The notes under the pieces were generated by a model. It was not told the origin of the DNA, did no database searches, and saw only the letters and a program-made list of their open reading frames with translations. The translations under genes were made by a program, and so were the position numbers. A stretch of DNA of 61,202 bases from an uncultured Gammaproteobacteria bacterium (GTDB lineage Bacteria > Patescibacteriota > Patescibacteriia > UBA11705), in assembly GCA_964592195.1 (NCBI GenBank), contig CAZQEI010000006.1, positions 1 through 61,202 of the forward strand, read 5' to 3'. This document shows, one piece after another, positions 5,522 through 56,156 of this stretch (positions are counted from its first letter, which is position 1; each line of letters begins with the position of its first letter).

Positions 5522-7035
5522 TTGTCGTTTGACAATTTACACATAGATTTTTAAGAGATATAGGCGTCTAAGACTGAAAACCAGATCTAACGACCACCAA
5601 CCGAGTGTGTGGTGGCTGAAAGGAGGTTTGACATGGATTGGACGTGATTAAAGGAACGCAGAAACAATCCCGGGACAGGGCCAAGTGTCCAGTCTGAGTC
5701 ATTTCGCGTAAGCTCCGCCCATAGTTGTGCCCGTCAGGGTATGCAAGCGGAGGGTATCGGGATTTGATTCAGTTGATACGAGACGAACCAGTAGGAGACT
5801 CGGACCTCTACCAAACTCGTGTGAGGGCGGGGAGGAAAGAGGCCCTCCGGTGATATGGCCTGCTTCGGGTCTGAGACCAACCCGGTCAACCCGACGCGAT
5901 GTTTAACAGTCCCCTTCAGAATGGAGGCCTTCGATGCTATTCATTCATCGGCTTCTCAACTCGCGCAGGCGTGAGCGCTAAAATTCGGTGACAGCGCGGT
6001 AAAATAGTCACCAAAGGGTTTTAATCAGGGCCTCTGATTAAAACGATCTAGCGGGTTATGTAGTAGCCGTGGCTCCCGCTAGAGTTCGAGTAACATGGAG
6101 CTAGCCACACCGCGTGTTTTCAGAAAAGGAGGATGGCGATAATGCGCTACATTCGCGACGGCCCGTAGTTCACTACTGGAGCACGTGGATGCACAGCTCA
6201 GGATGTCTGCCCCGCCCGCAACTGCACACGCAGTCCCGCACTACATCGCGTGGGCTGTCGTCGGCGAAGCGGCCGGGTACACGCGCTCATCATCGACTGA
6301 TGCTCCCTACTTGGTTTCGCTGTCTTGTGTGTGACAGGCCCAAGTGAGCCGACGACCATCGGCATCGGGGAGTAAATAGGAGGCGCTATGCCGCGTGATC
6401 CCCCGTAATCAACAACTGACCCTGGGGATGTTCCCGCACAGAGAATGCTTTCTTCCGTTCTGTAACTAGCCCCGGCCGCAAAAGAAGCGGTTCACATCGG
6501 CCAGCGACAAGGCACGATGACGGGTCAGCACCAAGCCATGAGGCGAAGGAGTTTTCCATGTATGACTGGTGGTAAAGAGCCTTTCATCCACTTCAGGCAG
6601 AACAATGGAAAGTGGACAAGGGCCTGACAGGATTGAAGATCTCAGTCCGAGGCGATCCGTATGTTTTGATGCGGAGTTAACAAGGGTCATGAATCGTGCC
6701 GAGGTGCGAAGTTCATGACGATCAGATCTGCCACACGCCGATAACGACATTGGCTTGGTAGACTGAGTTCCTAAACTCTGGTGGGCGTAAGGTATCCTCC
6801 GACTGGTGTCGGTTGTGAATGCTTATTGCCACGCAAACAGCCTTCTGGAGGTTCAATGATTAGAGCACCCCCGAGTCGCGAGCCTTGCAGGCTCACATCG
6901 GATCAGGCGAGTAGCTGAGTCGCATGCGCCAATCGAGATCGTCAACGACGATTCTCGCCGCTTTCAAGCGGATGTCGCGCGTCGCGTTAGGCGAAAGTCT
7001 CGAGAACATGAGACGGACTAACCTCCGTCTCTTAA
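5522..7035 (+). ncRNA. Candidate giant structured non-coding RNA (~1.5 kb), class unknown
   Basis: Runs from promoter to terminator with no credible ORF. Sampled lines give 52-67 % GC in an AT-rich genome. Perfect helices include 6018-6028/6034-6044, 6047-6055/6075-6083 and 6686-6693/6712-6719. Confidence 0.6.
7010..7031 (+). terminator. Terminal hairpin of the large RNA
   Basis: GAGACGGA/TCCGTCTC 8-bp stem, loop CTAACC, with only a weak T tract after it. Confidence 0.5.
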
Positions 7036-7063
7036 ATTTGGAAAAATTTTATTGAAAAATAAA

Positions 7064-22223: not shown

Positions 22224-22847
22224 ATGTTCTATCGACAAGCTTTTCACACTATTTCAAAGTTTAAGGTCAGTTTTGTGATCAAAGTATTGATCGCCTCAGA
22301 CTTCATGGTCTGGGCGTCTTCAAACTTGTTAGCACCGATCTTTGCTATTTTTATTACCAATACTATTAAAGGTGCCAGTCTGGAAACGATCGGTTTTGCT
22401 GCTTCTATCTATTTTATAGTTAAAGCTATTTGTGAAATTCCAGCAGGCGTGTTGATTGATAAAAATCGACATAAGAAATTTGATTTGTATTTAACGGTTT
22501 TGGGAACGGTGATGACTGGTTTGATTTATTTTAGTTATAATTACATTACAACTATCCCAATGCTTTTCTTGGCGCAAGGTGCTTTGGGTTTGAGCGCGGC
22601 GATTTGTTATCCCGGCTGGTATTCCATGTTTACGAATCACATTGATAAAGAGAAGGAAGCGTTTGAATGGAGTTTATATGATGTGTCCATGGGCGTCGGG
22701 ATTTCCTTGGCCTCAGCGATTGGGGCTACTGTTGCTGATTTATGGGGATTTGGAATATTGTTCAACTCCTTGGGAGTGTTAACATTACTCGGCGCCGTGT
22801 TGTTGTTATCAATTAAGGGAAAATTAAAACCAGTCTTAGCTAAATAG
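22224..22847 (+). CDS. Half-size MFS-like membrane protein (6 TM, 207 aa)
   Basis: Six hydrophobic helices with an MFS motif-A-like loop GVLIDKNRHKK. It ends at a proper terminator. Confidence 0.55.
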   Translation: MFYRQAFHTISKFKVSFVIKVLIASDFMVWASSNLLAPIFAIFITNTIKGASLETIGFAASIYFIVKAICEIPAGVLIDKNRHKKFDLYLTVLGTVMTGLIYFSYNYITTIPMLFLAQGALGLSAAICYPGWYSMFTNHIDKEKEAFEWSLYDVSMGVGISLASAIGATVADLWGFGILFNSLGVLTLLGAVLLLSIKGKLKPVLAK

Positions 22848-22887: not shown

Positions 22888-22913
22888 CAAAAAATCATGC
22901 GCTATGGCATGAT
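22888..22913 (-). terminator. Rho-independent terminator of the island
   Basis: Minus strand: ATCATGC-CATAGC-GCATGAT then TTTTTT. Near-identical to the terminator at 23549-23574. Confidence 0.75.
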
Positions 22914-22918
22914 TAACT

Positions 22919-23488
22919 CTAATTTGTTGATTTTCGACAATGTTCAATAGCGGCTTCGCTTTCGGGTGTTACTCCCGGTGGCGGTGTGGTCGGAGTGTCA
23001 AACTGTCTTGGAGTGTTTAGAATACTATCGAGGTTTTTAGCCGCGGCCAAATTTGCCTCGTCATCACCCCAAAGATGAGCGTTGAGTTCTTTCGAACGAG
23101 TAATAGTATCTGCACTAAATGGAGTAACACAGAAACCTGGACCTGAACCTTTAGAAATTACCGGAGACGGACAATTGTATGAACGAGGTGTCAGTTTGTC
23201 AATCGCTAAACAGATTACTACACGATCTTTGAAAATCTTTCCCATTGACCGGATCCAGCGGTAAAGAATATACAAAGAGATCAAAGCACCTACTACGATA
23301 AAAATATCTTTGAAATGTGCGTATTCGGGATCTTTATAAAATACATATCCGACCGCAAGAACAAGAAGAAAATAGGAAATATCGCAAAGTGTGACAATAA
23401 GCATACGAGTGGAATTCCATTTTTTGTCTTTTTGGAGTTCTTCGAGTTTTTCAGTGTTCAAGTTGCCTCCTGTTTGGTTGTTTGTCAA
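22919..23488 (-). CDS. 2-TM membrane protein with ~100-aa C-terminal soluble domain (start uncertain)
   Basis: TM1 MLIVTLCDISYFLLVLAVGYVFY and TM2 IFIVVGALISLYILYRWI. AGGAGG precedes an internal TTG. The C-terminal domain carries 4 Cys and a Pro-rich tail. Confidence 0.55.
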   Translation of the reverse strand: MTNNQTGGNLNTEKLEELQKDKKWNSTRMLIVTLCDISYFLLVLAVGYVFYKDPEYAHFKDIFIVVGALISLYILYRWIRSMGKIFKDRVVICLAIDKLTPRSYNCPSPVISKGSGPGFCVTPFSADTITRSKELNAHLWGDDEANLAAAKNLDSILNTPRQFDTPTTPPPGVTPESEAAIEHCRKSTN

Positions 23489-23548
23489 AGGTCTTGGCTG
23501 ATTTGAATATTATACTAAAAGGCTATTTATGTCAAAGTGTTTGATTAA

Positions 23549-23574
23549 TAAAAAATCATGCGCAATGGCATGAT
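23549..23574 (-). terminator. Rho-independent terminator
   Basis: Minus strand: ATCATGC-CATTGC-GCATGAT then TTTTTT. Confidence 0.75.
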
Positions 23575-23582
23575 TCTAGTGA

Positions 23583-23915
23583 TTAACTTGGAGGTTGAAC
23601 GTCTCTATTTTCTTTAAATACTGTTACTCCTGCACCGGTAATAAATTCCTCAACGATCGAACTTTCTTCCGCGCTCAATTTGTTTATTTCTTTTTCTTTG
23701 CGAGAAAAGATGAGACCAGTCAGAATCATAATCAGCATGTTAGCGATGATTATTAAAATTCTATTGTGCATTTCAATTGTTTTATATTCAGCTATGTAGA
23801 TAATGAAATAAAACGCAAATAACATTATAAATAGCGAAATATAGAAATAACAATTTATAATACGGGTTTTTGATTGATGAATTTGGAAAAGTCGGTTGAA
23901 CTTAGCTTGCTCCAT
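23583..23915 (-). CDS. Small 2-TM protein (110 aa)
   Basis: Charged N-terminus, TM1 CYFYISLFIMLFAFYFIIYIA, TM2 ILIIIANMLIMILTGLIF, acidic C-tail. It overlaps the upstream gene by 14 nt. Confidence 0.55.
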   Translation of the reverse strand: MEQAKFNRLFQIHQSKTRIINCYFYISLFIMLFAFYFIIYIAEYKTIEMHNRILIIIANMLIMILTGLIFSRKEKEINKLSAEESSIVEEFITGAGVTVFKENRDVQPPS

Positions 23916-24228
23916 GCTTTACCTCCAGGCTGCGAATTTGTGAAACTATTACCGTGGTAAAGAGGAAACCATTTTCCCGTAATTCGGCAACAATTCTTTC
24001 GTATTTAATTCGTGTTGTGAAATAATGTACGATGGAAGTGGTTATTGCTAATAGACAGATTATTGACTTCGATAAATATAAGTAGTTTGGTAAAACAGTA
24101 TATTGATTAATCATCTCTGAAATGATACAGAAAGTAGCCATCACGGCAATACAAATGAAAATATTAAAACGATTTTTCTTGTGAATTATCTGATTTAATC
24201 TTTCATATCTATGATGATCAGATCTCAT
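23902..24228 (-). CDS. Small 2-TM protein (108 aa)
   Basis: AGGAGG RBS 21 nt after the PurA-like stop. TM1 FNIFICIAVMATFCIISEMI, TM2 SIICLLAITTSIVHYF. Confidence 0.55.
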   Translation of the reverse strand: MRSDHHRYERLNQIIHKKNRFNIFICIAVMATFCIISEMINQYTVLPNYLYLSKSIICLLAITTSIVHYFTTRIKYERIVAELRENGFLFTTVIVSQIRSLEVKHGAS

Positions 24229-24249
24229 GGTGTGGCCTCCTGCTTTTGT

Positions 24250-25650
24250 TCATCTAATAGTAAACTTACCTTCTCTCGTCTCGTTCACTGAAATCAATTC
24301 GATCTTGGTTCTAAGCAACTTTTCCACATGACGAACAAACGCTTGCGCGTTCTTGGGCAAATCTGAGAAATCTTTGCAAGCTCGAATATTATCAATCCAA
24401 CCTGGAAGGTAATGGCAAATGGGATGACATTTTTCCAAAACTCTAGTAACTTTATCTCGGTCAATCGTTCTCGGCTGAATATCTGTGATGGTGAATGTTC
24501 CATTCCCGTTCTTTGAATAAACAAAATTGTCTACCAAATCATCTTCATCGCCTTCATATTCATAAGCATTGCAAACGGGCAATTGAAGCAGGCCAGAAAG
24601 CTGATCCAAGCAAGTCATGGCTAGACCGTCTACTCCGTCATTGGCTTCAATGCCGTAACGAAGCAGGACGAGATCCAGTGGACCAACTCGGAATGGACCT
24701 TGCCAATCATTACGCAAATTAAAATGATCATAATAGAATGAATCATACCGAATATCTTCTGTTGGCAACGGACCAGAACCATGGCGATGAGCATAGGCGC
24801 GGAATACGCCAAGCTTGCGAGGTTTTTCCGGTAGGGGATGAAGTTCAAATGCTTGATGGTAAGTAACTTTTGCTTGTGTGATGTGAGGGGTAAAGCCAAA
24901 ATGACGATCAAGCAAAGCGCCTTGTGATCCTTCGTAAAGCAAAGGTCGTCCAGCTTGAATTTGCGACATCAAGTAATTGTTTCCCAAATCAAAATGAATA
25001 CCCATGTCTTCCAAAAATGCTTTATAGAAATCAGCCAGCTTGTGAATGGTGTATTGATACCGGAAATGCTCGTAAATTTTGTGAGCCGCTTCATTGTCAG
25101 GATTAGCCGCCAATATAGCTTTGGCTTCTTCATGCTTTAGACTTCCAATAGTTCTCAGTTTCTCGAGTAGGTAATTGTGATCAATGCAATCCAGAATAGA
25201 AAGCGAAAGATTCTTTTCATGATCGCGGATCGTTTCACCGACACCTAGGCCACAGGAACCATATTTTCGATTACGAATGGCAATTCTCATTCTAGCTACC
25301 ATAACATGAAAAGGTGTAATAATTGTGACATTAGGAGAAATTACCATACGATGAATTAACTTTGGTTCAGCTATTTGATCACTCAAATATGAATTTTCAA
25401 CCAGCAGTTCCATTGGACACAAATAAAAATGACGAGAAATATAAGTGTTTACATCACGGTGGAAAGTTGCGGCGCCGAATTGCTGGAATTTGTGATGTCC
25501 CATTCTGGCTACAACGTTGTGGACGCATTGAACTGCTCCGCTGAACTTTACATCAACAGCGTTCGGATATTCTTCAGCCAAATAGTCAATAATTGTGCCT
25601 TTACCACCATCACCAAAACCAATATCGAGAATAATGGTGTCGTTGGGCAT
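24250..25650 (-). CDS. Divergent adenylosuccinate synthetase (PurA)-like enzyme
   Basis: Collinear with PurA. GFGDGGKGT matches GDEGKGK, CVHNVV matches NAGHTV, LYEGSQGALLD matches FEGAQGTLLD, RAYAHRHGSGPLPTE matches KAYSTRVGAGPFPTE, and YLPGW matches MPGW. The TTGRRRR loop and the TKLD Lys are not conserved. Confidence 0.8.
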   Translation of the reverse strand: MPNDTIILDIGFGDGGKGTIIDYLAEEYPNAVDVKFSGAVQCVHNVVARMGHHKFQQFGAATFHRDVNTYISRHFYLCPMELLVENSYLSDQIAEPKLIHRMVISPNVTIITPFHVMVARMRIAIRNRKYGSCGLGVGETIRDHEKNLSLSILDCIDHNYLLEKLRTIGSLKHEEAKAILAANPDNEAAHKIYEHFRYQYTIHKLADFYKAFLEDMGIHFDLGNNYLMSQIQAGRPLLYEGSQGALLDRHFGFTPHITQAKVTYHQAFELHPLPEKPRKLGVFRAYAHRHGSGPLPTEDIRYDSFYYDHFNLRNDWQGPFRVGPLDLVLLRYGIEANDGVDGLAMTCLDQLSGLLQLPVCNAYEYEGDEDDLVDNFVYSKNGNGTFTITDIQPRTIDRDKVTRVLEKCHPICHYLPGWIDNIRACKDFSDLPKNAQAFVRHVEKLLRTKIELISVNETREGKFTIR

Positions 25651-25701
25651 GTGGTGCTCCTTGGGTTTTTAGTTGTAAGTAACTATCAATAATAGTCTCA
25701 A

Positions 25702-25726
25702 GAAAAAAGCTTGGGATTCCCAAGCT
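25702..25726 (-). terminator. Hairpin terminator/attenuator between the vWA and PurA-like genes
   Basis: Minus strand: AGCTTGGG-AAT-CCCAAGCT then TTTTTT. Confidence 0.6.
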
Positions 25727-25743
25727 GTTCAATGAAGTATTAT

Positions 25744-26919
25744 TTACGATTTGGCTTCGAAGCGACCGCGACTGTCACGTTGTAGACGCTTTCGAACTTC
25801 GATATCCACGACATCGGTGCTCAGAACGAAGTTGGGATCAACCTTCTGACCATCGACCCAAATTTCCCGATTGAGGAACGAGATGTTGTAACGCTGAAGG
25901 ACTTCTCCAACCGTTTCACCCAGTTCATACTTGATACCTTGCTCAGTGAAGCTGGGCGCCGTCAGATTGGCATCAGCTTTCACGGAGTCGCTAGTCTTCG
26001 GCAAAGAAGGGGGTACGAAATTTTTGAAAATCTGACGAATCATTTCACGTCGAGCCGGAGTTTGTTCACGCTTGCGCATATCTTCGAGATAGCCATCCAA
26101 AGTGCGAACACCATTACCAAGTGCCAGAATGCCAAGCAACATATCGACAATCGCTTGATCTTCGGGAACAATGAAGACATTGTTATCACCGAGGACTCGT
26201 CGCCACATTTCCAGAACTTGACCATCATCAATGCTATTCATCTGAGTATAGGGACGGTGAATCAGGTAGACATTGTTGTTGAATTTCTTACGAAGATCTT
26301 CGAAAACCTTGGTAGCATTCGTAGAGCTGTGTTCACCACCAAAGACTTTGGTCAAGAAATTCCGAGTCAGACATTCATTTTCACGGAAGCCTTCATCAGA
26401 GACGAACACGCAATAAGGATTCTTGACTTCAGTCATGTCAACAAGGTAGGCGAACAAGTAGGCTACGACTTCAGGCGATTCCACACCCTGACCGCCACCA
26501 CCATGTTCATCCATGAAAATGCGCTTCAGTTGACCATCCAGACCTTTAACGACGACAGGATCACAAATTTGGATAGGCGATTGATCGCCGTTGAAAAAAT
26601 CATTTCCAATGAAATCTTGGAACATACCTACATGAATCTGATGATCGGGAAAATATCCTTGAGTTTGAGTTTCCCGTGAATAGTTCGGCATACGATCGAG
26701 CATGGCTTTGGGTGCCGTATCCATGGAACCAGTAATGTCCAATCCAAGAGCAAGGAAGTTCTTAGCTGTCACCTTGAACTTTCTACCATAAGGAAGAATA
26801 TCATTGGTTTGAACCTTTTTTTCGAAGAACTTCTCAGAAAAGTCAGTCGTTCCACGATGAGTTCTTTGTGACGATGAAGTCGTATCTCTATCGTAATGAC
26901 AACCACCCGGTCCGCCCAT
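25744..26919 (-). CDS. vWA-domain protein with C-terminal beta-grasp (ThiS/MoaD/ubiquitin-like)-looking segment
   Basis: AAGGAGGG RBS. MIDAS-type strand LALGLDITGSMD (DxTGS), later CVFVSDEG. The C-terminus IWVDGQKVDPNFVLSTDVVDIEV resembles the ThiS/MoaD pattern. Confidence 0.7.
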   Translation of the reverse strand: MGGPGGCHYDRDTTSSSQRTHRGTTDFSEKFFEKKVQTNDILPYGRKFKVTAKNFLALGLDITGSMDTAPKAMLDRMPNYSRETQTQGYFPDHQIHVGMFQDFIGNDFFNGDQSPIQICDPVVVKGLDGQLKRIFMDEHGGGGQGVESPEVVAYLFAYLVDMTEVKNPYCVFVSDEGFRENECLTRNFLTKVFGGEHSSTNATKVFEDLRKKFNNNVYLIHRPYTQMNSIDDGQVLEMWRRVLGDNNVFIVPEDQAIVDMLLGILALGNGVRTLDGYLEDMRKREQTPARREMIRQIFKNFVPPSLPKTSDSVKADANLTAPSFTEQGIKYELGETVGEVLQRYNISFLNREIWVDGQKVDPNFVLSTDVVDIEVRKRLQRDSRGRFEAKS

Positions 26920-27010
26920 GATGCCCTCCTTAATCCCGCTCAGCGGGACTGTTTGGGGTTAACGCGAATTTGTATGTAAAGAACGTTCAAAAATAGATAA
27001 TTTCATTCTT

Positions 27011-27047
27011 TTCCGCCGGAGGCGGATCCGCCTTTGGCGGAGGAATT
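27011..27047. repeat. GC-rich double-hairpin repeat (family E), copy 2, inside the vWA-gene leader
   Basis: TTCCGCCGGAGGCGGATCCGCCTTTGGCGGAGGAATT versus 44328-44364 TTCCGTCTGAGGCGGATCCGCCTTTGGCGGAAGAATT. The similarity continues into ATTTGGTGCTT. Confidence 0.8.
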
Positions 27048-27088
27048 AGGGATTTGTTATTTGGTGCTTGCCAGGAACTGGATATGTA

Positions 27089-27117
27089 TTTTTAACATAT
27101 ATTTTACCTCGTGTCAA
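27089..27117 (-). promoter_or_regulatory. Possible promoter of the vWA gene
   Basis: Minus strand: TTGACA, 17 nt ending TGt, TAAAAA. This would give a ~165-nt leader. Confidence 0.35.
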
Positions 27118-27159
27118 TCCAGGGAATTTTGATTTATAACGATTTTATCTAAAATTAAA

Positions 27160-27182
27160 TAAAAAACACGTCATTTGACGTG
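27160..27182 (-). terminator. Rho-independent terminator after the upstream 2-TM pair
   Basis: Minus strand: CACGTC-AAAT-GACGTG then TTTTTT. Confidence 0.7.
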
Positions 27183-27189
27183 GTTTATG

Positions 27190-27468
27190 TTACTTTGTCT
27201 TTCGTGCTCTGACGATTTCGTCCTTGATATCAACCATCTTCAGCAAGCTGGCAACAATGTTTTTGACGCAATAGCTGACCATGAGAATACAGATGCTACA
27301 GGTGGAGACTTTGATAAAGGTTGAGTACTTCACACTTTGAAAAACATTATATCCAATTAACACGGAAAAACAGGAAACAATTGTGACTGCCAAGAAAGCG
27401 GTGAGAAATTCAGTAAAGTGATAATTGAATTCATTCTGGAGTTGCAGTTCAGCCTGCTTGTTGCTCAT
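27190..27468 (-). CDS. Small 2-TM protein (92 aa)
   Basis: TM1 FLTAFLAVTIVSCFSVLIGY, TM2 VSTCSICILMVSYCV, basic C-tail. It overlaps the upstream gene by 20 nt. Confidence 0.55.
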   Translation of the reverse strand: MSNKQAELQLQNEFNYHFTEFLTAFLAVTIVSCFSVLIGYNVFQSVKYSTFIKVSTCSICILMVSYCVKNIVASLLKMVDIKDEIVRARKTK

Positions 27469-27781
27469 TTCCCTCTCTCCTTTGTGGGTTGCGTGACAGG
27501 AATGTGCGATTTACAATTTTTGAAGAAGCTAATTTCATTTCATTGTCCAATTCTTTAAGCGATTGAGTATCGTTGTAGATCAACCAAACACTGAGTGCTG
27601 TTATTACGATGAAACAAAAACTTATACCAAAGACTAATATTTCATTCGAATAAATTCCGACACCGGCTAATCCAATTGATAACAATAGAGTTAAAACGAA
27701 GAAAAGGTATTCTCTTTTTAGTGAAGACTGCAATCTTATATATTCCTTTTTCAAGTCTTTAAGTTGTTCCAATTGACCCAT
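27449..27781 (-). CDS. Small 2-TM protein (110 aa)
   Basis: AAGGAG RBS. Charged N-terminal helix, TM1 YLFFVLTLLLSIGLAGVGIY, TM2 ILVFGISFCFIVITALSVWLIY. Confidence 0.55.
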   Translation of the reverse strand: MGQLEQLKDLKKEYIRLQSSLKREYLFFVLTLLLSIGLAGVGIYSNEILVFGISFCFIVITALSVWLIYNDTQSLKELDNEMKLASSKIVNRTFLSRNPQRREGNEQQAG

Positions 27782-27832
27782 CGGGTGCTCCTTGTTCGGT
27801 TGATGATTTTTGTCAATGAACGATGAAGTGTT

Positions 27833-27861
27833 TTTATATCACAGTATTTAACTTTTGTAAA
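27833..27861 (-). promoter_or_regulatory. Promoter of the upstream 2-TM gene pair
   Basis: Minus strand: TTTACA, 17 nt ending TGa, TATAAA. Confidence 0.5.
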
Positions 27862-27945
27862 TAGTTTTGTAATGATTTTGGTTGTAATTATGTATGATAT
27901 ATGCTAGTATATGTTTATAATTATAATTGTAATTTTATCTATTTT

Positions 27946-30684
27946 ATGTCAATTTTTACCAAAATTTTTGGAGATCCCAACGATAAAGTCATTCAAAGTA
28001 TCCGCGTTATTGTTGATCAAGTCAATGCTTTAGAACCGACAATTCAAGCGTTATCTGATGAAGAATTGAAGGCTAAAACTGAATATTTTAAAAGTTTGTT
28101 GTCACAGGGAAAGACTTTGGACGATATATTACCGGAAGTTTTTGCTGTTGTGCGTGAAGCTTCGAAGCGAACCACAGGTTTACGCCATTTTGATGTACAG
28201 TTAATCGGTGGTGTGGTTTTACATAAAGGTGAAATCGCAGAAATGAAAACCGGTGAAGGTAAAACTTTAGTAGGTACTTTGGCTACCTATTTAAATGCTT
28301 TAACTGGAAGAGGTGTGCATGTGGTGACTGTGAATGATTATTTGTCCAGTCGTGATGCCACTTGGATGGGGCAAGTTTACAATTTTCTTGGTTTAACGGT
28401 TGGTGTCATTCAACATGAGTCTTCATTTATTTATGATGAATCATGGGCTGGTAATGATGTGGTTGATCAAACACGAGATGAAGAAGCCAGCTTCAAGGTG
28501 GAAAAATCATTTTTGAAACCAGTAACTAGAAAAGAAGCTTATGCTTGCGATATTACTTATGGAACAAATAATGAATTTGGTTTTGATTTTTTAAGAGATA
28601 ACATGGTCGGGAAACTGGAAGAAAAAGTGCAACGACCATTTTACTATGCCATAGTCGATGAAGTCGATTCAATTTTAATCGATGAAGCTCGAACACCGTT
28701 AATTATTTCCGCTCCAGCTGAAGAATCTGCAGCCATGTATGATCAGTTTGCTCATTTAGTTCCCAAACTTGAAGTCAATATTGATTATAATGTGGATGAG
28801 AAAATGAAAGCTACTACTTTAACCGAAGCGGGTTTGAATAAAATCGAAAAATTACTCGGCATGGGAAATATTTACACTGAAGGTGGTATTGAAATGGTGC
28901 ATCATTTGGAACAAGCTTTGAAAGCTCATGCTTTGTTTAAAAAAGATAAAGATTATGTGGTTAAAGATGGAGAAATAATGATTATCGATGAATTCACCGG
29001 TCGCATGATGCCAGGACGTCGTTACTCCGAAGGTTTACATCAAGCTTTGGAGGCCAAGGAAGGCGTTGAGGTTAAAAAAGAAAGTCGCACTTTGGCGACC
29101 ATTACTTTTCAAAACTATTTTCGTTTATATGAAAAGTTGTCCGGTATGACTGGTACGGCTTTAACTGAAGCAGAAGAATTTAACAAAATTTATAATCTTG
29201 ATGTTACCTTAATTCCAACCAACAAAGAATTAAAACGTAAAGATTTAACTGATCGTGTTTATTCCACTGAATTAGGTAAATTCAAAGCCGCAGCCAGAGA
29301 AATTAAAGAATTACATGCCAAAGGCCAACCGGTTTTGGTTGGTACCATATCCATTGAAAAAAGTGAATTGTTGAGTCAATTACTGGAAAAAGAAGGTGTA
29401 CCTCATCAAGTGTTAAATGCCAAACATCATGAAAAGGAAGCGCAAATTGTCGCCCAGGCTGGTCGTGTTGGGGCTGTTACCGTGGCCACGAATATGGCAT
29501 GCAGTGGTGTGGATATGATTCGCGGTGGCGCACCATTTAACGAAGAAGAATACAAGAAAGTGGTGAACGCTGGTGGGTTGTTTGTTCTTGGCACAGAAAG
29601 ACATGAATCTCGTCGTATTGATAATCAGTTGCGAGGTCGTAGCGGTCGTCAGGGTGATCCGGGTAATTCTCAATTCTATGTGTCCATGGAAGATGATTTA
29701 ATGCGCATCTTTGGTTCTGATCGTGTGAAAAGTATTATGCAAACTTTTGGCATGCCAGAAGATATGCCGATTGAAAATGGCATTATTACTCGGTCCATTG
29801 AAACTTCCCAACGCAAAGTGGAGGAATATTATTTCGATGTGCGTAAGCATTTAGTGGATTACGACGACATCATGAATAAACAACGCGAAGCTATTTACAA
29901 ACGCCGCGATGAAATTTTAGCCGCCGGTAGTGAAGATACTGCCAATCTTCGAGGCAAGATTATGGAAATGATTGAGGATGAATTGGAGCAAGTGGTTTCT
30001 TTCCATACCGCAGAAGCGAAAAATGGAGATTGGGATTTGAAAGAAATTGTGGAAGTGGCTGGAACGATTTTCCCCGTGCCAGGTAATTTGTTGGAAGAGT
30101 TGAATAAATTGTATGAAGAAAGTAAGCATGTGCATGAATCGGAAATCCGCACGATAATTTTTGATAAGCTAATGGCGTTGGCAAAACAAGCATACGAAAA
30201 TTTACATGAAAGAATAAAATCTCAAGCTCCAGATAAAGATTACTTACCAATGATTGAAAATGAAATTTTGTTACGCAGTATTGATAATCTTTGGGTAGAA
30301 CATTTGGACTCCATGAATACTTTGAGAACTGGTATTGGTCTCCAAGGTTATGCTCAACGTGATCCGTTAGTTGAATACAAACGTGAAGCACGACAAATGT
30401 ATATTGAGTTATTGAACTTGATTCAAAAACAAGTGGTATATTCAATTTACAAAGTGGGTTTGAATGTGAAACAGCCGACCGTTACTGCCCCGGAAAATTT
30501 ATCGTATTCAGATACGAAATCCTCCGAGGCTTTTAACCCGACTAAAGATCCATATCAAACTGCTAAACATTCGGAAACAAAATCTGCGAATAAAAATTAC
30601 ACTTCTGCAGATCATAAAGTTGGTCGCAATGATCCATGTCCGTGTGGGAGCGGAAAAAAGTATAAGAAGTGCCATGGTGGGTAA
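27946..30684 (+). CDS. secA: Preprotein translocase ATPase SecA
   Basis: [10 protein letters not shown] Walker [29 protein letters not shown], and a C-terminal zinc motif [17 protein letters not shown] 27946 gives the canonical MSIFTKIFG start. Confidence 0.97.
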
Positions 30685-42936: not shown

Positions 42937-43231
42937 TTGAATCCAACTCTTCGCGTCCCTTGGCGCGAGGTAAAAACTTGCTGACCCCTAAAGGGGTCGA
43001 TAACGGGTAGACTATTCTTATCTCGGGCTTTAGCCCGAAGTCAAGATTATCAAGCTTTAACCATTTGAATATTGGGATTGATTATTCGAATTGTTTACCG
43101 CCACCTTTCACCAGAGGCTGACTAGAAGAAAGGTGACGATAAACGAAGAAGCGCTTGACATTAATGAGTCTTTATTATAAATTATGCTCAGTTCATTCCA
43201 TAACAGCCCCAGCGTGGGGTAGGAGGTGCTC

Positions 43232-44197
43232 ATGGCCAGCTTTTCCGGTAAACCTAAGGCTGATGATCAAAAAGTCAAAAATTTGGTACTACATGAACAA
43301 GTTTTCGAAAGGTTTGTGATTGTCAGTGCGGAGATTAAGAGTGGTGGTAAACGCCCATATTGGTTGCTGGAAGTCGGCGATGCGACTGGCAGAATTCGTT
43401 TGTATGTTTGGGACGTTGTACCCATGGATGCCACTGAGTTCGGCAAAAAGTTCCCGGTTGGTAAGGTGGCAGTTTTCTTTGGCAAGGTTAAGGAATATGA
43501 AGGCCGCAAGAAGATTGACGTGACTTGCAGTGAACTGGAAAAGCATTATCGGCTGTGCGAAGAGGATGAAGTCGATTTCGTGGAATTCAGTACTGTCGCT
43601 TGCACTAAACGAGATGTACCAAAAATGCTTTCCGATCTTCGAACGATGATTAGCGGTCTTTCAAATACCACTTATCGAGCAATCGCCAAGTTGTTTTTTG
43701 ATGATGAGGTTTGGGTGAAAAAGTTTTCCTCTGCTGTTGCCGCGCGTACTCGTCATCACAATTGGCAAGGTGGTTTACTCGAACATGTTTGGTCCATGGC
43801 ATCATTGGCCAATAGCACTTTGCGTATTCATGACTGGTTGGATTTTGACCTTCTCCTCACAGGTATTCTTTTTCATGATTTGAGCAAAATGGACGATTAC
43901 GCTGTTGGTCTCGCGATTAGTATGAACGCCGATGATCGCCATCGTCTGACCGGCCACATGGCTCGCGCTCAGATGGAGATTGAAAAGCGTTTGTTCGCAT
44001 CTGGTCAGCCGTATGATCAAGTGGATCTGGAAAAGCTGCTGCACCTGGTTTGTTCACATCATGGCGTCATGGAAAACGGTTTCGGTTCATCAGTTTCACC
44101 TTATCTGCCTGAAGCCTGGGCTCTGCACTGCATCGACATGCTCGATGCGAAGATTGTGGAGTCTCGCAGCTACGTTCACGAAAAATATAAGCATTAA
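43232..44197 (+). CDS. OB-fold + HD-domain nuclease (YhaM-like 3'-5' exoribonuclease family)
   Basis: AGGAGG RBS. N-terminal OB-like beta region (RIRLYVWD...FFGKVKEYEGRKKI) and HD motifs HHNWQGGLLEH and LFHDLSK. Confidence 0.7.
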   Translation: MASFSGKPKADDQKVKNLVLHEQVFERFVIVSAEIKSGGKRPYWLLEVGDATGRIRLYVWDVVPMDATEFGKKFPVGKVAVFFGKVKEYEGRKKIDVTCSELEKHYRLCEEDEVDFVEFSTVACTKRDVPKMLSDLRTMISGLSNTTYRAIAKLFFDDEVWVKKFSSAVAARTRHHNWQGGLLEHVWSMASLANSTLRIHDWLDFDLLLTGILFHDLSKMDDYAVGLAISMNADDRHRLTGHMARAQMEIEKRLFASGQPYDQVDLEKLLHLVCSHHGVMENGFGSSVSPYLPEAWALHCIDMLDAKIVESRSYVHEKYKH

Positions 44198-54911: not shown

Positions 54912-55337
54912 TCAGTCTGTATCCATTTCAGTTACGTAGAACTGAGTCCCACGAGGACATTGATTTTTGATATCATAGGCATCGTCTTCGATTGAAACAA
55001 AGTTGTCGTATACAAGCTTGTAGATCGGATGTTCGGACTCGCCATCAATGCGTTGAAGTAGGGTAACATGTGAATTTTCGAACAGTTCACACTTGTCACC
55101 CTTGATGACTTCACGAAATTGATTGCGAACCGGCGCGACGTTGATGACTTGGACCGCAGTCCTCTTCAACACCATAGCGCCATCACCGGGATTACGCATG
55201 GAGTTGAGTGTCACCAGCTCACGCTGAACGATCTTCGGCTCTTTTTCGTACTGAAGTTCCGAGTTGAAGTGAGCATAATCATGTTCCATACATCCGATCA
55301 TCAACGCGAAGCAGAGTGCGAGCACACTTATCCTCAT
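54912..55337 (-). CDS. Putative lipoprotein, operon gene 4 (141 aa)
   Basis: Signal peptide with lipobox-like MIGC (MRISVLALCFALMIGC). ATGA overlap with gene 3. Confidence 0.6.
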   Translation of the reverse strand: MRISVLALCFALMIGCMEHDYAHFNSELQYEKEPKIVQRELVTLNSMRNPGDGAMVLKRTAVQVINVAPVRNQFREVIKGDKCELFENSHVTLLQRIDGESEHPIYKLVYDNFVSIEDDAYDIKNQCPRGTQFYVTEMDTD

Positions 55338-55924
55338 CTTTGACTTCCTTTCGGCTTGAGTTTGAAAGCAGCCACTTTACGTTCGTGAAGCAACTTGCGT
55401 TCGCGCTCTCTTTCCATCCGATCGTCGAGGAAACACGTATCCAGATCCAATTCAGGAAGCAACGCATCACGATGCATCGTGAGAGGCATCATGTCGAGCT
55501 TGTATGGATCAGGTTTCAGCAATTCTAAAATTCCACGCATGGTTCGCTGATGAAGATCTTCATCATGAATTACCGGGGATTGTGGCATTAAAACTCCAAT
55601 ATCAAGATTTTTTCTGGCAAGAAGGATACTATCAGCAAACAGTCTCATTGAACCAGAAAAATCATCATCAACAATTAATAGTAATCTTCGATGATGAATG
55701 GATTCTTGTGTGTGGCTTTCAAAAACAGTATTCTCGGGAAAACGATAATCAGCCAGTTGACGCTGGAAATCAGCGCTGAATCTCCGCCTGGTTCCAAAGT
55801 CGAAAAGCGGTTCGATCTTCTTGTTCGGATCGATACCAATGCTTCTCAATGCATCATTATCGTCTCGGTAGGGGAACGCGTAGAATTGAACCTTAAGAAA
55901 ACTCAGATCAATTTTTTTACTCAT
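55334..55924 (-). CDS. Hypothetical protein, operon gene 3 (196 aa from MSKKIDL)
   Basis: ATG 55924 overlaps the gene-2 stop (ATGAGTAA). Contains FDFGTRRRF. Confidence 0.55.
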   Translation of the reverse strand: MSKKIDLSFLKVQFYAFPYRDDNDALRSIGIDPNKKIEPLFDFGTRRRFSADFQRQLADYRFPENTVFESHTQESIHHRRLLLIVDDDFSGSMRLFADSILLARKNLDIGVLMPQSPVIHDEDLHQRTMRGILELLKPDPYKLDMMPLTMHRDALLPELDLDTCFLDDRMERERERKLLHERKVAAFKLKPKGSQR

Positions 55925-56156
55925 TTCGAGTGTTGTCTCCGGGTTCGACTTCGGCTTCTCCACCCACGTCGGCTTGCGCTTCATCGTGTTGCCCTCCTGT
56001 ATTGTGCTTTGCATCAAACAATGGACCCATGACTCCACTCAGAACATTCGCGAAACGATCGTTGTCTACGGTGATTGTTCCATTTTTGGAAAGAAGGCTA
56101 ACAAATTCATTACAAAAAGGGAAATCTGAAGAAGGCTTCTTGATTTCGTCGCTCAT
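55917..56156 (-). CDS. Hypothetical acidic protein, operon gene 2 (79 aa)
   Basis: The start directly abuts the gene-1 stop (TAAATG). The N-terminus MSDEIKKP duplicates that of gene 1. Confidence 0.55.
   Translation of the reverse strand: MSDEIKKPSSDFPFCNEFVSLLSKNGTITVDNDRFANVLSGVMGPLFDAKHNTGGQHDEAQADVGGEAEVEPGDNTRNE

What the first reader, a model, noticed from the sequence alone, without database searches (positions are those of the whole stretch)
22919..27861. Opposite-strand accessory island: five small 2-TM proteins flanking a vWA/beta-grasp protein and a divergent PurA-like enzyme
Seen in sequence. Seven minus-strand genes interrupt a plus-strand housekeeping run (hpf, MFS-half ... secA). 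The layout is promoter, overlapping 2-TM pair (110 + 92 aa), terminator, promoter plus ~165-nt hairpin-rich leader, vWA protein, hairpin, PurA-like enzyme, overlapping 2-TM pair (108 + 110 aa, coupled by AGGAGG 21 nt after the PurA-like stop), terminator, 2-TM protein with a C-terminal domain, terminator. The two central genes are visibly GC-richer (~43-52 % on sampled lines) than the 2-TM genes (~33 %) and than secA (~40 %). Established knowledge: small 2-TM proteins (holin-like, SLATT-like) are common membrane-disrupting effectors in conflict systems. vWA domains act as sensors or scaffolds in several NTP-dependent conflict systems. PurA-family enzymes, including phage PurZ, carry out NTP-dependent purine C6 chemistry. 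Inference: this could be a previously undescribed nucleotide-modifying or nucleotide-signalling membrane-effector system. I know of no described system with this composition.
Basis: partly seen in the sequence, partly recalled or inferred. Interest (0 to 1): 0.8.

Follow-up and report, generated by a model that had tools for sequence, protein, structure and literature searches.

The report
Conserved vWA plus PurA-paralogue gene pair
The core of this "island" is an undescribed but widespread two-gene module: a vWA-fold protein and an adenylosuccinate-synthetase paralogue that has lost its aspartate site. It occurs in hundreds of bacteria and large phages, whereas the five small membrane genes around it are orphans found nowhere else.

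Summary
The seven minus-strand genes, their ribosome-binding sites, terminators and hairpin-rich leader are all present as described.

Closely related candidate-phyla genomes have murB-hpf-secA directly adjacent, so the block is an insertion.

The 391-aa protein has a vWA fold with an intact metal site. In this genome only, it also carries a probable C-terminal ubiquitin-like beta-grasp domain.

The 466-aa protein belongs to the PurA family:
- It keeps the GTP loop, Asp13, His41, Gln224 and Asp333.
- It has lost every aspartate-binding residue.
- It carries family-specific Gln38, Cys129, His273 and Trp-Gln-Gly-x-Phe.

The two genes are neighbours in almost every locus examined:
- 79 of 83 bacterial loci that carry the vWA gene.
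- Bixzunavirus mycobacteriophages.
- 26 of 40 large environmental phage loci. The others pair the vWA protein with a pyruvate-kinase-like barrel instead.

Recurrent partners are a J-domain Ser/Thr kinase, an AAA ATPase, an NrtR-like regulator and NAD synthetase. Membrane proteins are not among them.

The type of vWA N-terminal tail (Met-Gly-Gly...) tracks the presence of the PurA paralogue.

The five two-transmembrane ORFs have no homologue in any related locus, and the one searched against 1.84 billion proteins found only itself.

No known defence family matches, and I found no paper describing the pair. The claim of a new nucleotide-enzyme module is supported.

The parts
27449..27781 (-). 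110-aa two-TM ORF; first gene of the block, with AAGGAG 6 nt before the ATG
   Evidence: ORF; SD; two hydrophobic segments; no homologue in related loci; in-frame codon score is the best of six frames but low.
27190..27468 (-). 92-aa two-TM ORF; overlaps the previous ORF by 20 nt, with its own GGAGAGAGGG Shine-Dalgarno
   Evidence: no homologue in related loci.
27167..27182 (-). Terminator-like hairpin with a T-run after the 92-aa ORF
   Evidence: sequence read.
26920..27117 (-). Promoter-like site (TTGACA-18-AAAAAT, 27088-27117) and hairpin-rich leader of the vWA gene
   Evidence: Fold of 26917-27095: -45 kcal/mol, z = -2.8. No Rfam family at E <= 5. Conservation could not be tested because no close relative exists.
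25744..26919 (-). 391-aa vWA-fold protein, type A of an uncharacterised family; partner of the PurA paralogue
   Evidence: No Pfam, NCBIfam, PADLOC or PDB sequence hit. phrog_2971, E = 9e-14. AlphaFold2 pLDDT 83.6 and Foldseek matches to integrin beta I-domain and SpaC vWA, probability 1.0. 147 homologues found with a profile. 311 relatives in species-representative genomes.
26881..26919 (-). Conserved N-terminal tail MGGPGGCHYDRDT (family consensus MGGGGSYYDRDV)
   Evidence: M1, Y9 invariant and G5, G6, D10, R11, D12, V13 nearly invariant in 60 sequences. 90 of 120 homologues start MGGG. The tail type tracks the PurA-like partner.
26020..26772 (-). vWA domain proper with a MIDAS-like D61-x-T63-G-S65 and D175-E176, plus a helical extension
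   Evidence: Invariant columns; secondary structure and fold match.
25762..25950 (-). Extra C-terminal ubiquitin-like beta-grasp domain, absent from the homologues aligned; followed by the family's C-terminal ...GRF motif
   Evidence: Alignments. Model pLDDT 77. All top Foldseek matches are ubiquitin-like (TtuB, SUMO, SAMP2), but E = 0.09-0.5. It does not end in Gly-Gly.
25708..25726 (-). GC-rich hairpin with a T-run between the vWA and PurA-like genes (possible partial terminator)
24250..25650 (-). 466-aa PurA-family paralogue: GTP and phosphotransfer residues kept, aspartate site lost
   Evidence: PF00709, 222 bits. Best NCBIfam purA equivalog 182 bits against a cut-off of 402; PurZ 16.9 against 300. 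phrog_1211. Residue mapping against E. coli PurA. Family signature RHG in 118 of 120 homologues, GSCG-type in 112, and canonical TTGRxRR in none.
23902..24228 (-). 108-aa two-TM ORF; AGGAGG then ATG 21 nt after the PurA-like stop, so probably co-transcribed
   Evidence: The only hit among 1.84e9 representative proteins is itself.
23583..23915 (-). 110-aa two-TM ORF; overlaps the 108-aa ORF by 14 nt, with a GGAGG Shine-Dalgarno
   Evidence: no homologue in related loci.
23552..23577 (-). Terminator-like hairpin; its core is repeated almost exactly at 22893-22914
22919..23488 (-). 189-aa ORF with two TM segments and a Pro/Cys-containing C-terminal region; TTG start, own promoter-like site (23506-23535)
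   Evidence: no homologue in related loci.
22893..22914 (-). Terminator-like hairpin closing the block; twin of 23554-23575

Best explanation
**What it is.** The functional core is a conserved two-gene module, inserted between hpf/MFS and secA in this candidate-phyla (Patescibacteria-like) genome.
- Gene 1 encodes a vWA-fold protein. It has an intact metal-ion site, a near-invariant N-terminal Met-Gly-Gly-...-Tyr-Asp-Arg-Asp tail and a basic C-terminal tail ending Gly-Arg-Phe. In this genome only, a ubiquitin-like beta-grasp domain is added.
- Gene 2 encodes a paralogue of adenylosuccinate synthetase (PurA).

**Shown.**
- The paralogue keeps the GTP P-loop, the catalytic Asp13 and His41, the purine-contacting Gln224, Thr239, and the guanine-specific Asp333.
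- It has lost every residue that binds L-aspartate: the Thr300-Thr301 and Arg303-Arg305 loop, and Arg131.
- It has also lost several IMP 5'-phosphate ligands: Asn38, Thr129 and Arg143.
- In their place it carries family-specific Gln38, Cys129, His273 and Trp/Tyr-Gln-Gly-x-Phe/Trp.

**Inferred.**
- It still uses GTP to phosphorylate the 6-oxo group of an IMP-like nucleotide.
- It then passes the activated purine to an amine other than free aspartate.
- The vWA protein is its obligate partner and contacts it through the N-terminal tail, either as regulator or scaffold or as the acceptor itself.

**Context elsewhere.** The module is wired to a J-domain Ser/Thr kinase, a pyruvate-kinase-like barrel, an AAA ATPase, NrtR-like regulators and NAD synthetase, and it is common in large phages. 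This points to nucleotide, NAD or ADP-ribose economy, possibly in phage-host conflict.

**The 2-TM genes.** The five genes are lineage-specific orphans riding in the same insertion. Two of them appear co-transcribed with the PurA paralogue. They are not part of the conserved machine.
For: **The pair is conserved.**
- The PurA-like gene is present in 79 of 83 loci holding the vWA relative, almost always directly downstream on the same strand.
- The same holds in independent metagenome contigs.
- Bixzunavirus phage Cali carries gp251 kinase, gp252 vWA, gp253 and gp254 PurA-like in a row.
- 26 of 40 IMG/VR and GenBank large-phage loci have it.

**Active-site mapping.**
- Alignment of 20 paralogues with a verified E. 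coli PurA sequence.
- Signature counts in 120 homologues.
- Far below the purA and PurZ equivalog cut-offs.

**vWA protein.**
- Fold and MIDAS-like site.
- Tail-partner covariation:
  - Met-Gly-type tails: 103 with PurA-like nearby, against 5 without, 4 of which are cut by contig ends.
  - Met-Ser-Glu-Ser-type tails: 9 with only the PK-like barrel.

**Partners.**
- Kinase, PK-like barrel, AAA, NadE, Macro.
- The NrtR-like gene aligns over the full NrtR length in about 70 actinobacterial loci.

**Insertion.** murB-hpf-secA are contiguous in relatives. The block is shared only with Falkowbacteria L088/L089.

**Orphan 2-TM genes**.
Against: - No biochemical datum exists. The substrate and the nucleophile are inferred from residue conservation alone.
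- Aspartate could still bind in a different way.
- The altered 5'-phosphate ligands may mean that the nucleotide is not IMP.
- The syntenic Falkowbacteria homologue starts MARDESGDRVYTRDV, without the Gly run. An N-terminal glycine is therefore not universal.
- The tail-partner correlation is not corrected for phylogeny, and the Met-Ser-Glu-Ser group may be a single clade.
- The window lacks the kinase, PK-like barrel, AAA and NrtR partners, so functions inferred from them may not apply to this minimal version.
- Two 2-TM genes follow the PurA paralogue with no terminator, so a local functional link cannot be excluded.
- Only 61 kb of the genome is visible. Whether a canonical purA exists elsewhere is unknown.
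Confidence: 0.55

Rival explanations
1. The seven genes form one conflict system: the vWA protein senses, the PurA-like enzyme makes or modifies a nucleotide signal, and the small 2-TM proteins are membrane-disrupting effectors.
For: - All seven genes share a strand inside one insertion.
- The 108- and 110-aa ORFs follow the PurA paralogue without a terminator and have strong ribosome-binding sites.
- The pair evolves much faster than its flanks: 29-35 % identity against 47-65 % to the syntenic genome. It is also common in phages. Both fit a conflict role.
Against: - No 2-TM homologue occurs in any of about 210 related or syntenic loci, and there is none at all for the 108-aa protein.
- The five are not detectably related to each other.
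- No holin, SLATT or PADLOC hit.
- Partners elsewhere are soluble enzymes and regulators.
- The first 2-TM pair is separated from the vWA gene by a terminator and a promoter.
- In Nocardia the pair sits in a stable chromosomal context near relA.
Confidence: 0.1
2. The module works in NAD and ADP-ribose economy. It is switched on when NAD is being consumed, and it salvages, repairs or rebuilds an adenine dinucleotide or its breakdown products. In phages it would offset NAD-depleting host immunity.
For: - An NrtR-family gene (Nudix plus winged helix, the NAD-regulon repressor family) lies directly downstream of the pair in about 70 actinobacterial loci and upstream in Herbidospora.
- In Saccharibacteria the module is embedded among NAD kinase, NrtR, nadB, nadA, a NadE-NMNAT fusion and nicotinamidase.
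- A NadE fusion is adjacent in four lineages (L001, L004, L007, L045) and a Macro-domain gene in L001.
- The module is present in many large phages.
- From established knowledge: phages are known to carry NAD-reconstitution pathways.
Against: - No NAD gene is present in the 61-kb window or in the syntenic Falkowbacteria locus.
- Some NrtR-family regulators control non-NAD genes.
- The retained Asp13, His41 and Gln224 argue for a 6-oxopurine substrate, which NAD and ADP-ribose lack.
- No paper links PurA paralogues to NrtR.
Confidence: 0.25
3. It is simply this small genome's housekeeping adenylosuccinate synthetase (purA). It is divergent because candidate-phyla proteins are divergent, and it happens to sit next to an unrelated vWA gene.
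For: - PF00709 covers the whole length at 222 bits, and 22 solved PurA structures match at E values down to 3e-31.
- Automated annotation names homologues "adenylosuccinate synthetase".
- Reduced genomes rely on salvage steps.
Against: - 182 bits against an equivalog cut-off of 402.
- All aspartate ligands and three IMP-phosphate ligands are replaced by family-specific residues, conserved from CPR to Nocardia and phages.
- The same paralogue occurs in Nocardia, Amycolatopsis, Myxococcales and others. From established knowledge these make purines de novo with a canonical purA (not checked here).
- Linkage to the vWA gene is near-universal.
- No purB or other pur gene was noted in any locus whose genes were annotated.
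Confidence: 0.07

Closest known systems
Adenylosuccinate synthetase PurA (EC 6.3.4.4; Pfam PF00709)
   Same: - Same fold over the full length.
- GTP P-loop GD-x-GKG, catalytic Asp13 and His41, Gln224, Thr239 and the guanine-specifying Asp333 are all kept.
   Different: - The aspartate loop Thr300-Thr301-Gly-Arg303-Arg304-Arg305 is replaced by Trp/Tyr-Gln-Gly-(deletion)-x-Phe/Trp.
- Arg131 is lost in the CPR and Myxococcales members (Lys or Arg in the actinobacterial and phage ones); Arg143 is lost throughout.
- Asn38 becomes Gln, Thr129 becomes Cys and Val273 becomes His.
- The score is below every NCBIfam purA cut-off.
- It is always encoded beside a vWA protein rather than with purine genes.
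PurZ, the phage 2-aminoadenine (Z-base) succino-amino-deoxyadenylate synthase
   Same: A PurA-family paralogue carried by phages, with changed substrate specificity. phrog_1211 pools such phage PurA-like proteins.
   Different: - NCBIfam PurZ model: 16.9 bits against a cut-off of 300.
- PurZ still uses aspartate. Here the aspartate site is gone.
- No DpoZ, DatZ or MazZ-type gene was noted next to the pair in the loci whose annotation was read (not searched for specifically).
- The partner is a vWA protein.
AAA+/vWA chaperone-cochaperone pairs (MoxR-vWA type: CbbQ-CbbO, NorQ-NorD, BchI-BchD) and the TerY-type vWA + Ser/Thr kinase triads
   Same: A vWA protein with an intact MIDAS-like site is encoded next to an enzyme. 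In many relatives an AAA ATPase or a Ser/Thr kinase is also adjacent.
   Different: - The ATPase is a classical PF00004 AAA, not MoxR.
- No PP2C phosphatase was noted.
- The window has neither ATPase nor kinase.
- The vWA family matches no Pfam vWA model.
- The client enzyme, a PurA paralogue, is new for such pairs.
Small 2-TM effectors of defence systems (holin-like, SLATT-like)
   Same: About 100 aa, two hydrophobic helices and polar tails.
   Different: - No sequence match to any such family in Pfam or PADLOC.
- No homologues anywhere.
- Not linked to the conserved pair in any other genome.

Membership tests
Canonical adenylosuccinate synthetase (PurA) | PF00709 fold over the whole length | tested here: met
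   222.5 bits, residues 7-460; 22 PDB PurA sequences matched.
Canonical adenylosuccinate synthetase (PurA) | GTP P-loop and catalytic Asp13/His41, Gln224, guanine-specific Asp333 | tested here: met
   GDGGKG, H41, Q224 and D333 are present in the window protein and in all 19 other paralogues aligned.
Canonical adenylosuccinate synthetase (PurA) | L-aspartate ligands Thr300/Thr301, Arg303, Arg305 and Arg131 | tested here: not met
   W-Q-G-(gap)-P-F and Leu131 in the window; the aspartate-loop replacement is family-wide. 0 of 120 homologues have TTGRxRR.
Canonical adenylosuccinate synthetase (PurA) | IMP 5'-phosphate ligands Asn38, Thr129, Arg143 (Thr239 kept) | tested here: not met
   Gln38, Cys129 and Asn143; Gln38 is family-wide and Cys129 nearly so.
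Canonical adenylosuccinate synthetase (PurA) | Passes the curated equivalog score (NCBIfam purA models) | tested here: not met
   Best 181.6 bits against 402; TIGR00184 155.7 against 395.6.
Canonical adenylosuccinate synthetase (PurA) | Is the genome's only purA and works with purB | not testable with these tools
   Only 61 kb of the genome is available. No pur gene was recognised in the window, whose genes were only partly annotated.
PurZ | Matches the PurZ model and is linked to Z-genome genes | tested here: not met
   NF038379: 16.9 bits against 300. Neighbours are vWA, kinase and similar genes.
vWA domain | Rossmann-like vWA fold | tested here: met
   Model pLDDT 83.6. Foldseek matches to integrin beta I-domain and SpaC vWA: E = 1e-7, probability 1.0.
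vWA domain | MIDAS motif D-x-S-x-S ... T ... D | tested here: met
   D61-I-T63-G-S65 is invariant in 60 sequences, as are D102 and D175/E176. Metal binding itself was not tested.
vWA domain | Recognised by a curated vWA sequence model | tested here: not met
   No Pfam or NCBIfam hit at E <= 1. Only phrog_2971, of unknown function.
MoxR-vWA / NTP-dependent conflict systems | Adjacent MoxR-class AAA+ ATPase and an effector; listed in defence catalogues | tested here: not met
   No ATPase in the window. Relatives carry a PF00004 AAA. PADLOC gave no hit for the seven proteins or for vWA or PurA-like homologues, and only generic AAA and kinase domain hits for partners.
Holin/SLATT-like 2-TM effectors | Two TM helices in a small protein | tested here: met
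   Hydropathy analysis of all five.
Holin/SLATT-like 2-TM effectors | Sequence membership, or conserved linkage to the sensor and enzyme genes | tested here: not met
   No significant Pfam, PADLOC, PHROG or NCBIfam hit. No homologue in related loci. The 108-aa protein is unique among 1.84e9 proteins.
Ubiquitin-like beta-grasp (ThiS/MoaD/TtuB type) | Beta-grasp fold | tested here: inconclusive
   All top Foldseek matches are ubiquitin-like (TtuB probability 0.95-0.97, TM about 0.5), but E = 0.09-0.5, and the model was made from a single sequence. No sequence hit.
Ubiquitin-like beta-grasp (ThiS/MoaD/TtuB type) | C-terminal Gly-Gly for activation or conjugation | tested here: not met
   The protein ends ...RDSRGRFEAKS.
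NrtR-controlled NAD regulon | NrtR-family regulator or NAD genes adjacent | tested here: not met
   Absent from the window as far as its genes were annotated, though present next to homologues in about 75 other loci.

The most novel reading that the evidence does not exclude
**Proposal.** The PurA paralogue is a protein-modifying enzyme.
- It activates IMP (or a related 6-oxopurine nucleotide) with GTP.
- Instead of free aspartate, it uses the alpha-amino group of the vWA partner's exposed N-terminal glycine as the nucleophile. Met-Gly-Gly-Gly-Gly becomes Gly-Gly-Gly-Gly after methionine removal.
- The product is a vWA protein carrying an N6-linked AMP at its N-terminus. This would be a new kind of covalent protein "purinylation".
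- The modification would switch a vWA-based assembly that is further controlled by the linked kinase and AAA ATPase.

**Observations that fit.**
- The carboxylate-binding arginines are lost.
- Aromatic residues appear in their place.
- Gene linkage is obligate.
- The N-terminal tail is near-invariant.
- The Met-Gly tail co-occurs with the PurA paralogue, whereas vWA relatives paired only with a pyruvate-kinase-like barrel carry a different tail.

**Not excluded, not tested.** One homologue (L088) lacks the glycine run.
Probability: 0.15. Interest if true: 0.9.

Novelty: new variant of a known kind. Interest (0 to 1): 0.62.

Why it matters
- PurA-type chemistry (GTP-driven activation of a purine C6 oxygen, then displacement by an amine) is known for only two acceptor reactions, PurA and PurZ. 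Both use aspartate.
- This is a third, widespread branch:
  - at least 314 protein clusters;
  - 311 species-representative genomes carry the vWA partner's family;
  - about 140 mycobacteriophages and dozens of large environmental phages carry it.
- This branch has discarded the aspartate site and is locked to a vWA partner.
- Working out its product would add a new reaction to nucleotide biochemistry.
- It could also explain a conserved gene set in Bixzunavirus phages, Nocardia and minimal candidate-phyla genomes.
- Because of the NrtR, NadE and phage links, it may bear on NAD and nucleotide warfare between phages and hosts.
- The comparative data give concrete, cheap experiments in culturable systems (Mycobacterium phage Cali gp251-254; Nocardia operons).
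- For genome annotation, hundreds of "adenylosuccinate synthetase" labels are probably wrong.

Tried and rejected
**Family and literature searches**
- PADLOC, Pfam, NCBIfam and PHROG scans of all seven proteins gave nothing for the 2-TM proteins and no defence family. PADLOC on partner proteins from relatives gave only generic AAA (IetA, TRIP13) and kinase (PD-T4-6) domain hits, no system.
- Five literature searches and three targeted reads found no description of a vWA plus PurA-paralogue module. The reads were two comparative-genomics surveys of jumbo phages and viral NAD/ADP-ribose systems, plus a 2026 PurZ paper.
- A PDB sequence search with the vWA protein and with its C-terminal domain found nothing useful.

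**RNA**
- An Rfam search of the block, including the leader, tested for a riboswitch such as an NAD or purine class. There was no hit at E <= 5 apart from a chance sRNA match at a terminator.

**Look-ups and clustering that failed**
- Looking up the window's own contig by exact protein failed for both central proteins.
- A first single-linkage clustering of ORFs from the high-GC loci merged families through spurious overlapping ORFs and was discarded. Greedy gene calling still picked antisense ORFs in actinobacterial loci. I therefore relied on targeted phmmer and blastp queries and on called genes from public records.

**Inconclusive or rejected tests**
- Codon-usage test of the small ORFs. 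The annotated frame is the best of six for all five, but scores (-0.04 to 0.12) overlap those of spurious ORFs (-0.09 +/- 0.14) and of real small membrane genes. The result is inconclusive.
- The five 2-TM proteins as a paralogous family: rejected, best pairwise E = 0.04.
- Compositional evidence for recent foreign origin: weak. Only the vWA gene is a GC outlier.

Full report

Yes. Seven ORFs lie on the minus strand between the plus-strand genes murB, hpf and a 207-aa MFS-like gene on one side and secA on the other. Their order is 110 aa, 92 aa, 391 aa, 466 aa, 108 aa, 110 aa and 189 aa.

- Six of the seven start at an ATG preceded at 5-9 nt by AAGGAG, AGGAGG or GGAGG. The two small-gene pairs overlap by 20 and 14 nt.
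- Terminator-like hairpins follow the 92-aa, 110-aa and 189-aa ORFs, and a further hairpin separates the two central genes.
- The leader of about 180 nt upstream of the 391-aa gene folds better than shuffled controls (z = -2.8). It matches no Rfam family.
- All five small proteins have a polar N-terminus, two hydrophobic helices and a polar tail.
- The GC statement is only partly right. The 391-aa gene is a clear outlier at 45.5 %, against 37.3 +/- 2.8 % for window genes. The 466-aa gene is 41.3 % with normal third-position GC.

**2. Is it an island?**

I fetched 80 loci around the closest SecA relatives, which are candidate-phyla MAGs with SecA 50-62 % identical.

- Of the first 30 tabulated, about 13 have hpf immediately upstream of secA, most with murB before it, on one strand. 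Others have unrelated genes at the hpf|secA junction.
- None of the 80 has a relative of any of the seven island proteins there.
- Only one Falkowbacteria lineage (L088/L089) shares the arrangement: secA | vWA-like - PurA-like - PHP - 269 aa | MFS - hpf - murB.
- In that lineage the flanking genes are 47-65 % identical to the window's, but the PurA-like protein is 35 % and the vWA protein 29 % identical.

The block is therefore an insertion into a variable junction, and its two central genes evolve much faster than their surroundings or have been replaced.

**3. The two central proteins**

*The 391-aa protein.*
- It has no Pfam, NCBIfam, PADLOC or PDB sequence match. Its only hit is phrog_2971, of unknown function.
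- A first search of 5.8 billion proteins found six relatives. A profile search found 147, all unnamed, a few fused to a U-box, and two from eukaryotic transcriptomes.
- An AlphaFold2 model from a 60-sequence alignment (pLDDT 83.6) matches integrin beta I-domains and the SpaC vWA domain at Foldseek probability 1.0.
- The MIDAS-like D61-x-T63-G-S65 and D175-E176 are invariant.
- The family has two conserved short end motifs. One is the N-terminal tail MGGGGSYYDRDV; 90 of 120 sequences start MGGG. The other is a lysine-rich C-terminal tail ending GR[ILF](F) or W[KQE][LIV].
- The window protein alone carries about 65 extra residues before its ...GRF end. Modelled separately (pLDDT 77), this stretch resembles only ubiquitin-like beta-grasp proteins (TtuB probability up to 0.97). 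E-values are weak (0.09-0.5) and it lacks a terminal Gly-Gly.

*The 466-aa protein.*
- It belongs to the PurA family (PF00709, 222 bits). It is far below all NCBIfam purA cut-offs (182 against 402) and below the PurZ cut-off (17 against 300).
- I aligned it and 19 paralogues from other loci to a verified E. coli PurA sequence.
- Kept: Gly12-Asp13-x-Gly15-Lys16-Gly17, His41, Gln224, Thr239 and Asp333.
- Changed family-wide:
  - Asn38 to Gln.
  - Thr129 to Cys (nearly invariant).
  - Val273 to His.
  - Arg143 lost; Arg131 also lost in the CPR and Myxococcales members.
  - The aspartate loop Thr300-Thr301-Gly-Arg303-Arg304-Arg305 replaced by Trp/Tyr-Gln-Gly-(one-residue deletion)-x-Phe/Trp.
- Of the 120 best database homologues, 118 have Arg-His-Gly, 112 have the Gly-Ser-Cys-Gly-type motif, and none has the canonical Thr-Thr-Gly-Arg-x-Arg-Arg.
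- From the published enzymology of E. coli PurA (established knowledge): Asp13, His41 and Gln224 serve 6-phosphoryl-IMP formation, while Arg303, Thr300/301, Arg131 and Arg304/305 bind L-aspartate.
- The sequence therefore argues for retained GTP-dependent activation of a 6-oxopurine nucleotide and a changed nucleophile. This is an inference.

**4. The pair is a conserved module**

- A scan of one genome per species found 311 relatives of the vWA protein.
- Of the 83 loci held, 79 also carry the PurA paralogue, nearly always immediately downstream on the same strand. The exceptions are mostly cut contigs.
- Taxa include Saccharibacteria, Falkowbacteria, other Patescibacteria, Myxococcales, a Clostridia MAG, a Planctomycete and very many Nocardia, Lentzea, Actinokineospora, Amycolatopsis, Rhodococcus and Mycobacterium.
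- 140 Mycobacterium phages (Bixzunavirus) carry it. In phage Cali the order is gp251 (kinase), gp252 (vWA), gp253 (88 aa), gp254 (annotated PurA-like).
- In 40 viral loci (39 from IMG/VR, most from phages of 100-485 kb, plus one GenBank jumbo phage), 26 show (kinase)-vWA-PurA-like. Eleven show kinase-vWA followed by a truncated pyruvate-kinase barrel and no PurA paralogue.

**5. Partners elsewhere**

| Partner | Where found |
|---|---|
| Ser/Thr kinase with a J-domain-like N-terminus | Actinobacteria, phages, Clostridia |
| Pyruvate-kinase-like barrel of about 300 aa | CPR, Myxococcales, Clostridia, phages |
| PF00004 AAA ATPase plus a conserved 220-aa protein | CPR, Myxococcales |
| Second and third vWA paralogues | CPR loci such as L001, L004, L007 |
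| NrtR-family gene aligning over both Nudix and winged-helix parts, directly downstream | about 70 actinobacterial loci |
| NAD genes: NAD kinase, NrtR, nadB, nadA, NadE-NMNAT fusion, nicotinamidase, Macro | Saccharibacteria and other CPR loci |

None of these partners is in the window, as far as its genes were annotated. The window and L088 carry a minimal two-gene version.

**6. Covariation between tail and partner**

The vWA N-terminal tail falls into three types.
- Type A (MGGGGxYYDRD) and type B (MGxGxW) occur with a PurA paralogue nearby in 103 cases and without one in 5. Four of those five lie at contig ends.
- Type C (MSESxDY) occurs with only the PK-like barrel in 9 cases, and once in a locus that has all three vWA types and both enzymes.
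- This links the tail to the enzyme partner. The count is not corrected for shared ancestry, and L088 (MARDESGDRVYTRDV) is an exception.

**7. The small membrane genes**

- None of the five has a blastp or phmmer hit in the roughly 130 module-bearing loci, or in the 80 loci from the closest relatives.
- They are not significantly similar to each other.
- The 108-aa protein follows the PurA paralogue with no terminator. It finds only itself among 1.84 billion representative proteins.
- Strong ribosome-binding sites and best-of-six-frames codon scores suggest that they are real genes. The codon scores are low and overlap those of spurious ORFs, as is also true of other small membrane genes in the window.
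- They are best seen as lineage-specific orphans within the same insertion.

**8. Interpretation**

- Most likely (0.55): a conserved vWA-adaptor plus PurA-paralogue module. The enzyme performs GTP-driven activation of an IMP-like nucleotide and transfer to a non-aspartate amine. The vWA tail mediates the partnership.
- The broader role probably lies in nucleotide, NAD or ADP-ribose economy, quite possibly in phage-host conflict. The evidence is the phage prevalence, fast evolution and NrtR/NadE links (0.25 for a specific NAD link).
- The most novel reading not excluded (0.15) is that the N-terminal glycine of the vWA protein is itself the nucleophile, giving a protein N-terminally linked to AMP through N6.

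**9. Novelty**

- No catalogue (Pfam, NCBIfam, PADLOC, PHROG function) and no paper found in five full-text searches describes the pair. I cannot exclude work in journals outside the library.
- I class it as a new variant of a known kind: a third functional branch of the PurA family with a dedicated protein partner.
- The window is only one, minimal, instance. Its distinctive features are the fused beta-grasp domain and the orphan membrane genes.

Noticed in passing
window 22893-22914 and 23554-23575 (minus strand): Two terminator hairpins are almost identical over 22 nt (AATCATGCCAT[A/T]GCGCATGATT followed by a T-run). They are the only two copies in the window, against 0 expected by chance. 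This suggests a local duplication or a reused terminator cassette around the 189-aa gene.
   Followed up: partly
window 5550-7050: A stretch of about 1.5 kb has 52-60 % GC in a 38 % GC genome and contains no long ORF. It has no Rfam match (gathering threshold or E <= 1) and no tRNA or tmRNA. Folding 5600-6500 gives z = -1.0 (plus strand) and -1.6 (minus strand), which is not decisive. It could be an undescribed structured RNA, a gene remnant or foreign DNA.
   Followed up: partly
window 27901-27945: The mechanical secA ORF starts at 27901 with an odd N-terminus ([15 protein letters not shown]). Homologues begin MS[FL][FL]TK[IL]FGDPN, so the real start is almost certainly the ATG at 27946.
   Followed up: yes
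window 26917-27095 (minus strand): The leader of the vWA gene contains a nested GC-rich hairpin (CCGCCAAAGGCGGAUCCGCCUCCGGCGG). A second hairpin ends 2 nt before the Shine-Dalgarno sequence. There is no Rfam family, and conservation is untestable because no close relative exists.
   Followed up: partly
L007 (Saccharibacteria MAG), whole locus; L095-L107, L117, L132 (phages): A third vWA subtype with an N-terminal MSESxDY...W tail pairs with a truncated pyruvate-kinase barrel and a J-domain kinase, without any PurA paralogue. This is a sister module that is also undescribed.
   Followed up: partly
P0201 and P0205 (L092 6578-7882); P0214 and P0216: Some members of the vWA family are fused to a U-box (PF04564). 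Two come from eukaryotic transcriptomes (Trimastix and another EukProt entry). Together with the beta-grasp fusion in the window, this hints at a link to ubiquitin-like signalling.
   Followed up: no
window 22224-22847 and L088 11394-12014: A half-size MFS-like gene (207 and 206 aa, 47 % identical) accompanies the insertion in both genomes. It is absent from the hpf|secA junction of the other relatives, so it may have arrived with the block.
   Followed up: partly
window 43226-44197 and 55334-56038: Two other genes are GC outliers (46 % and 44 %) comparable to the vWA gene. Their identity was not examined.
   Followed up: no
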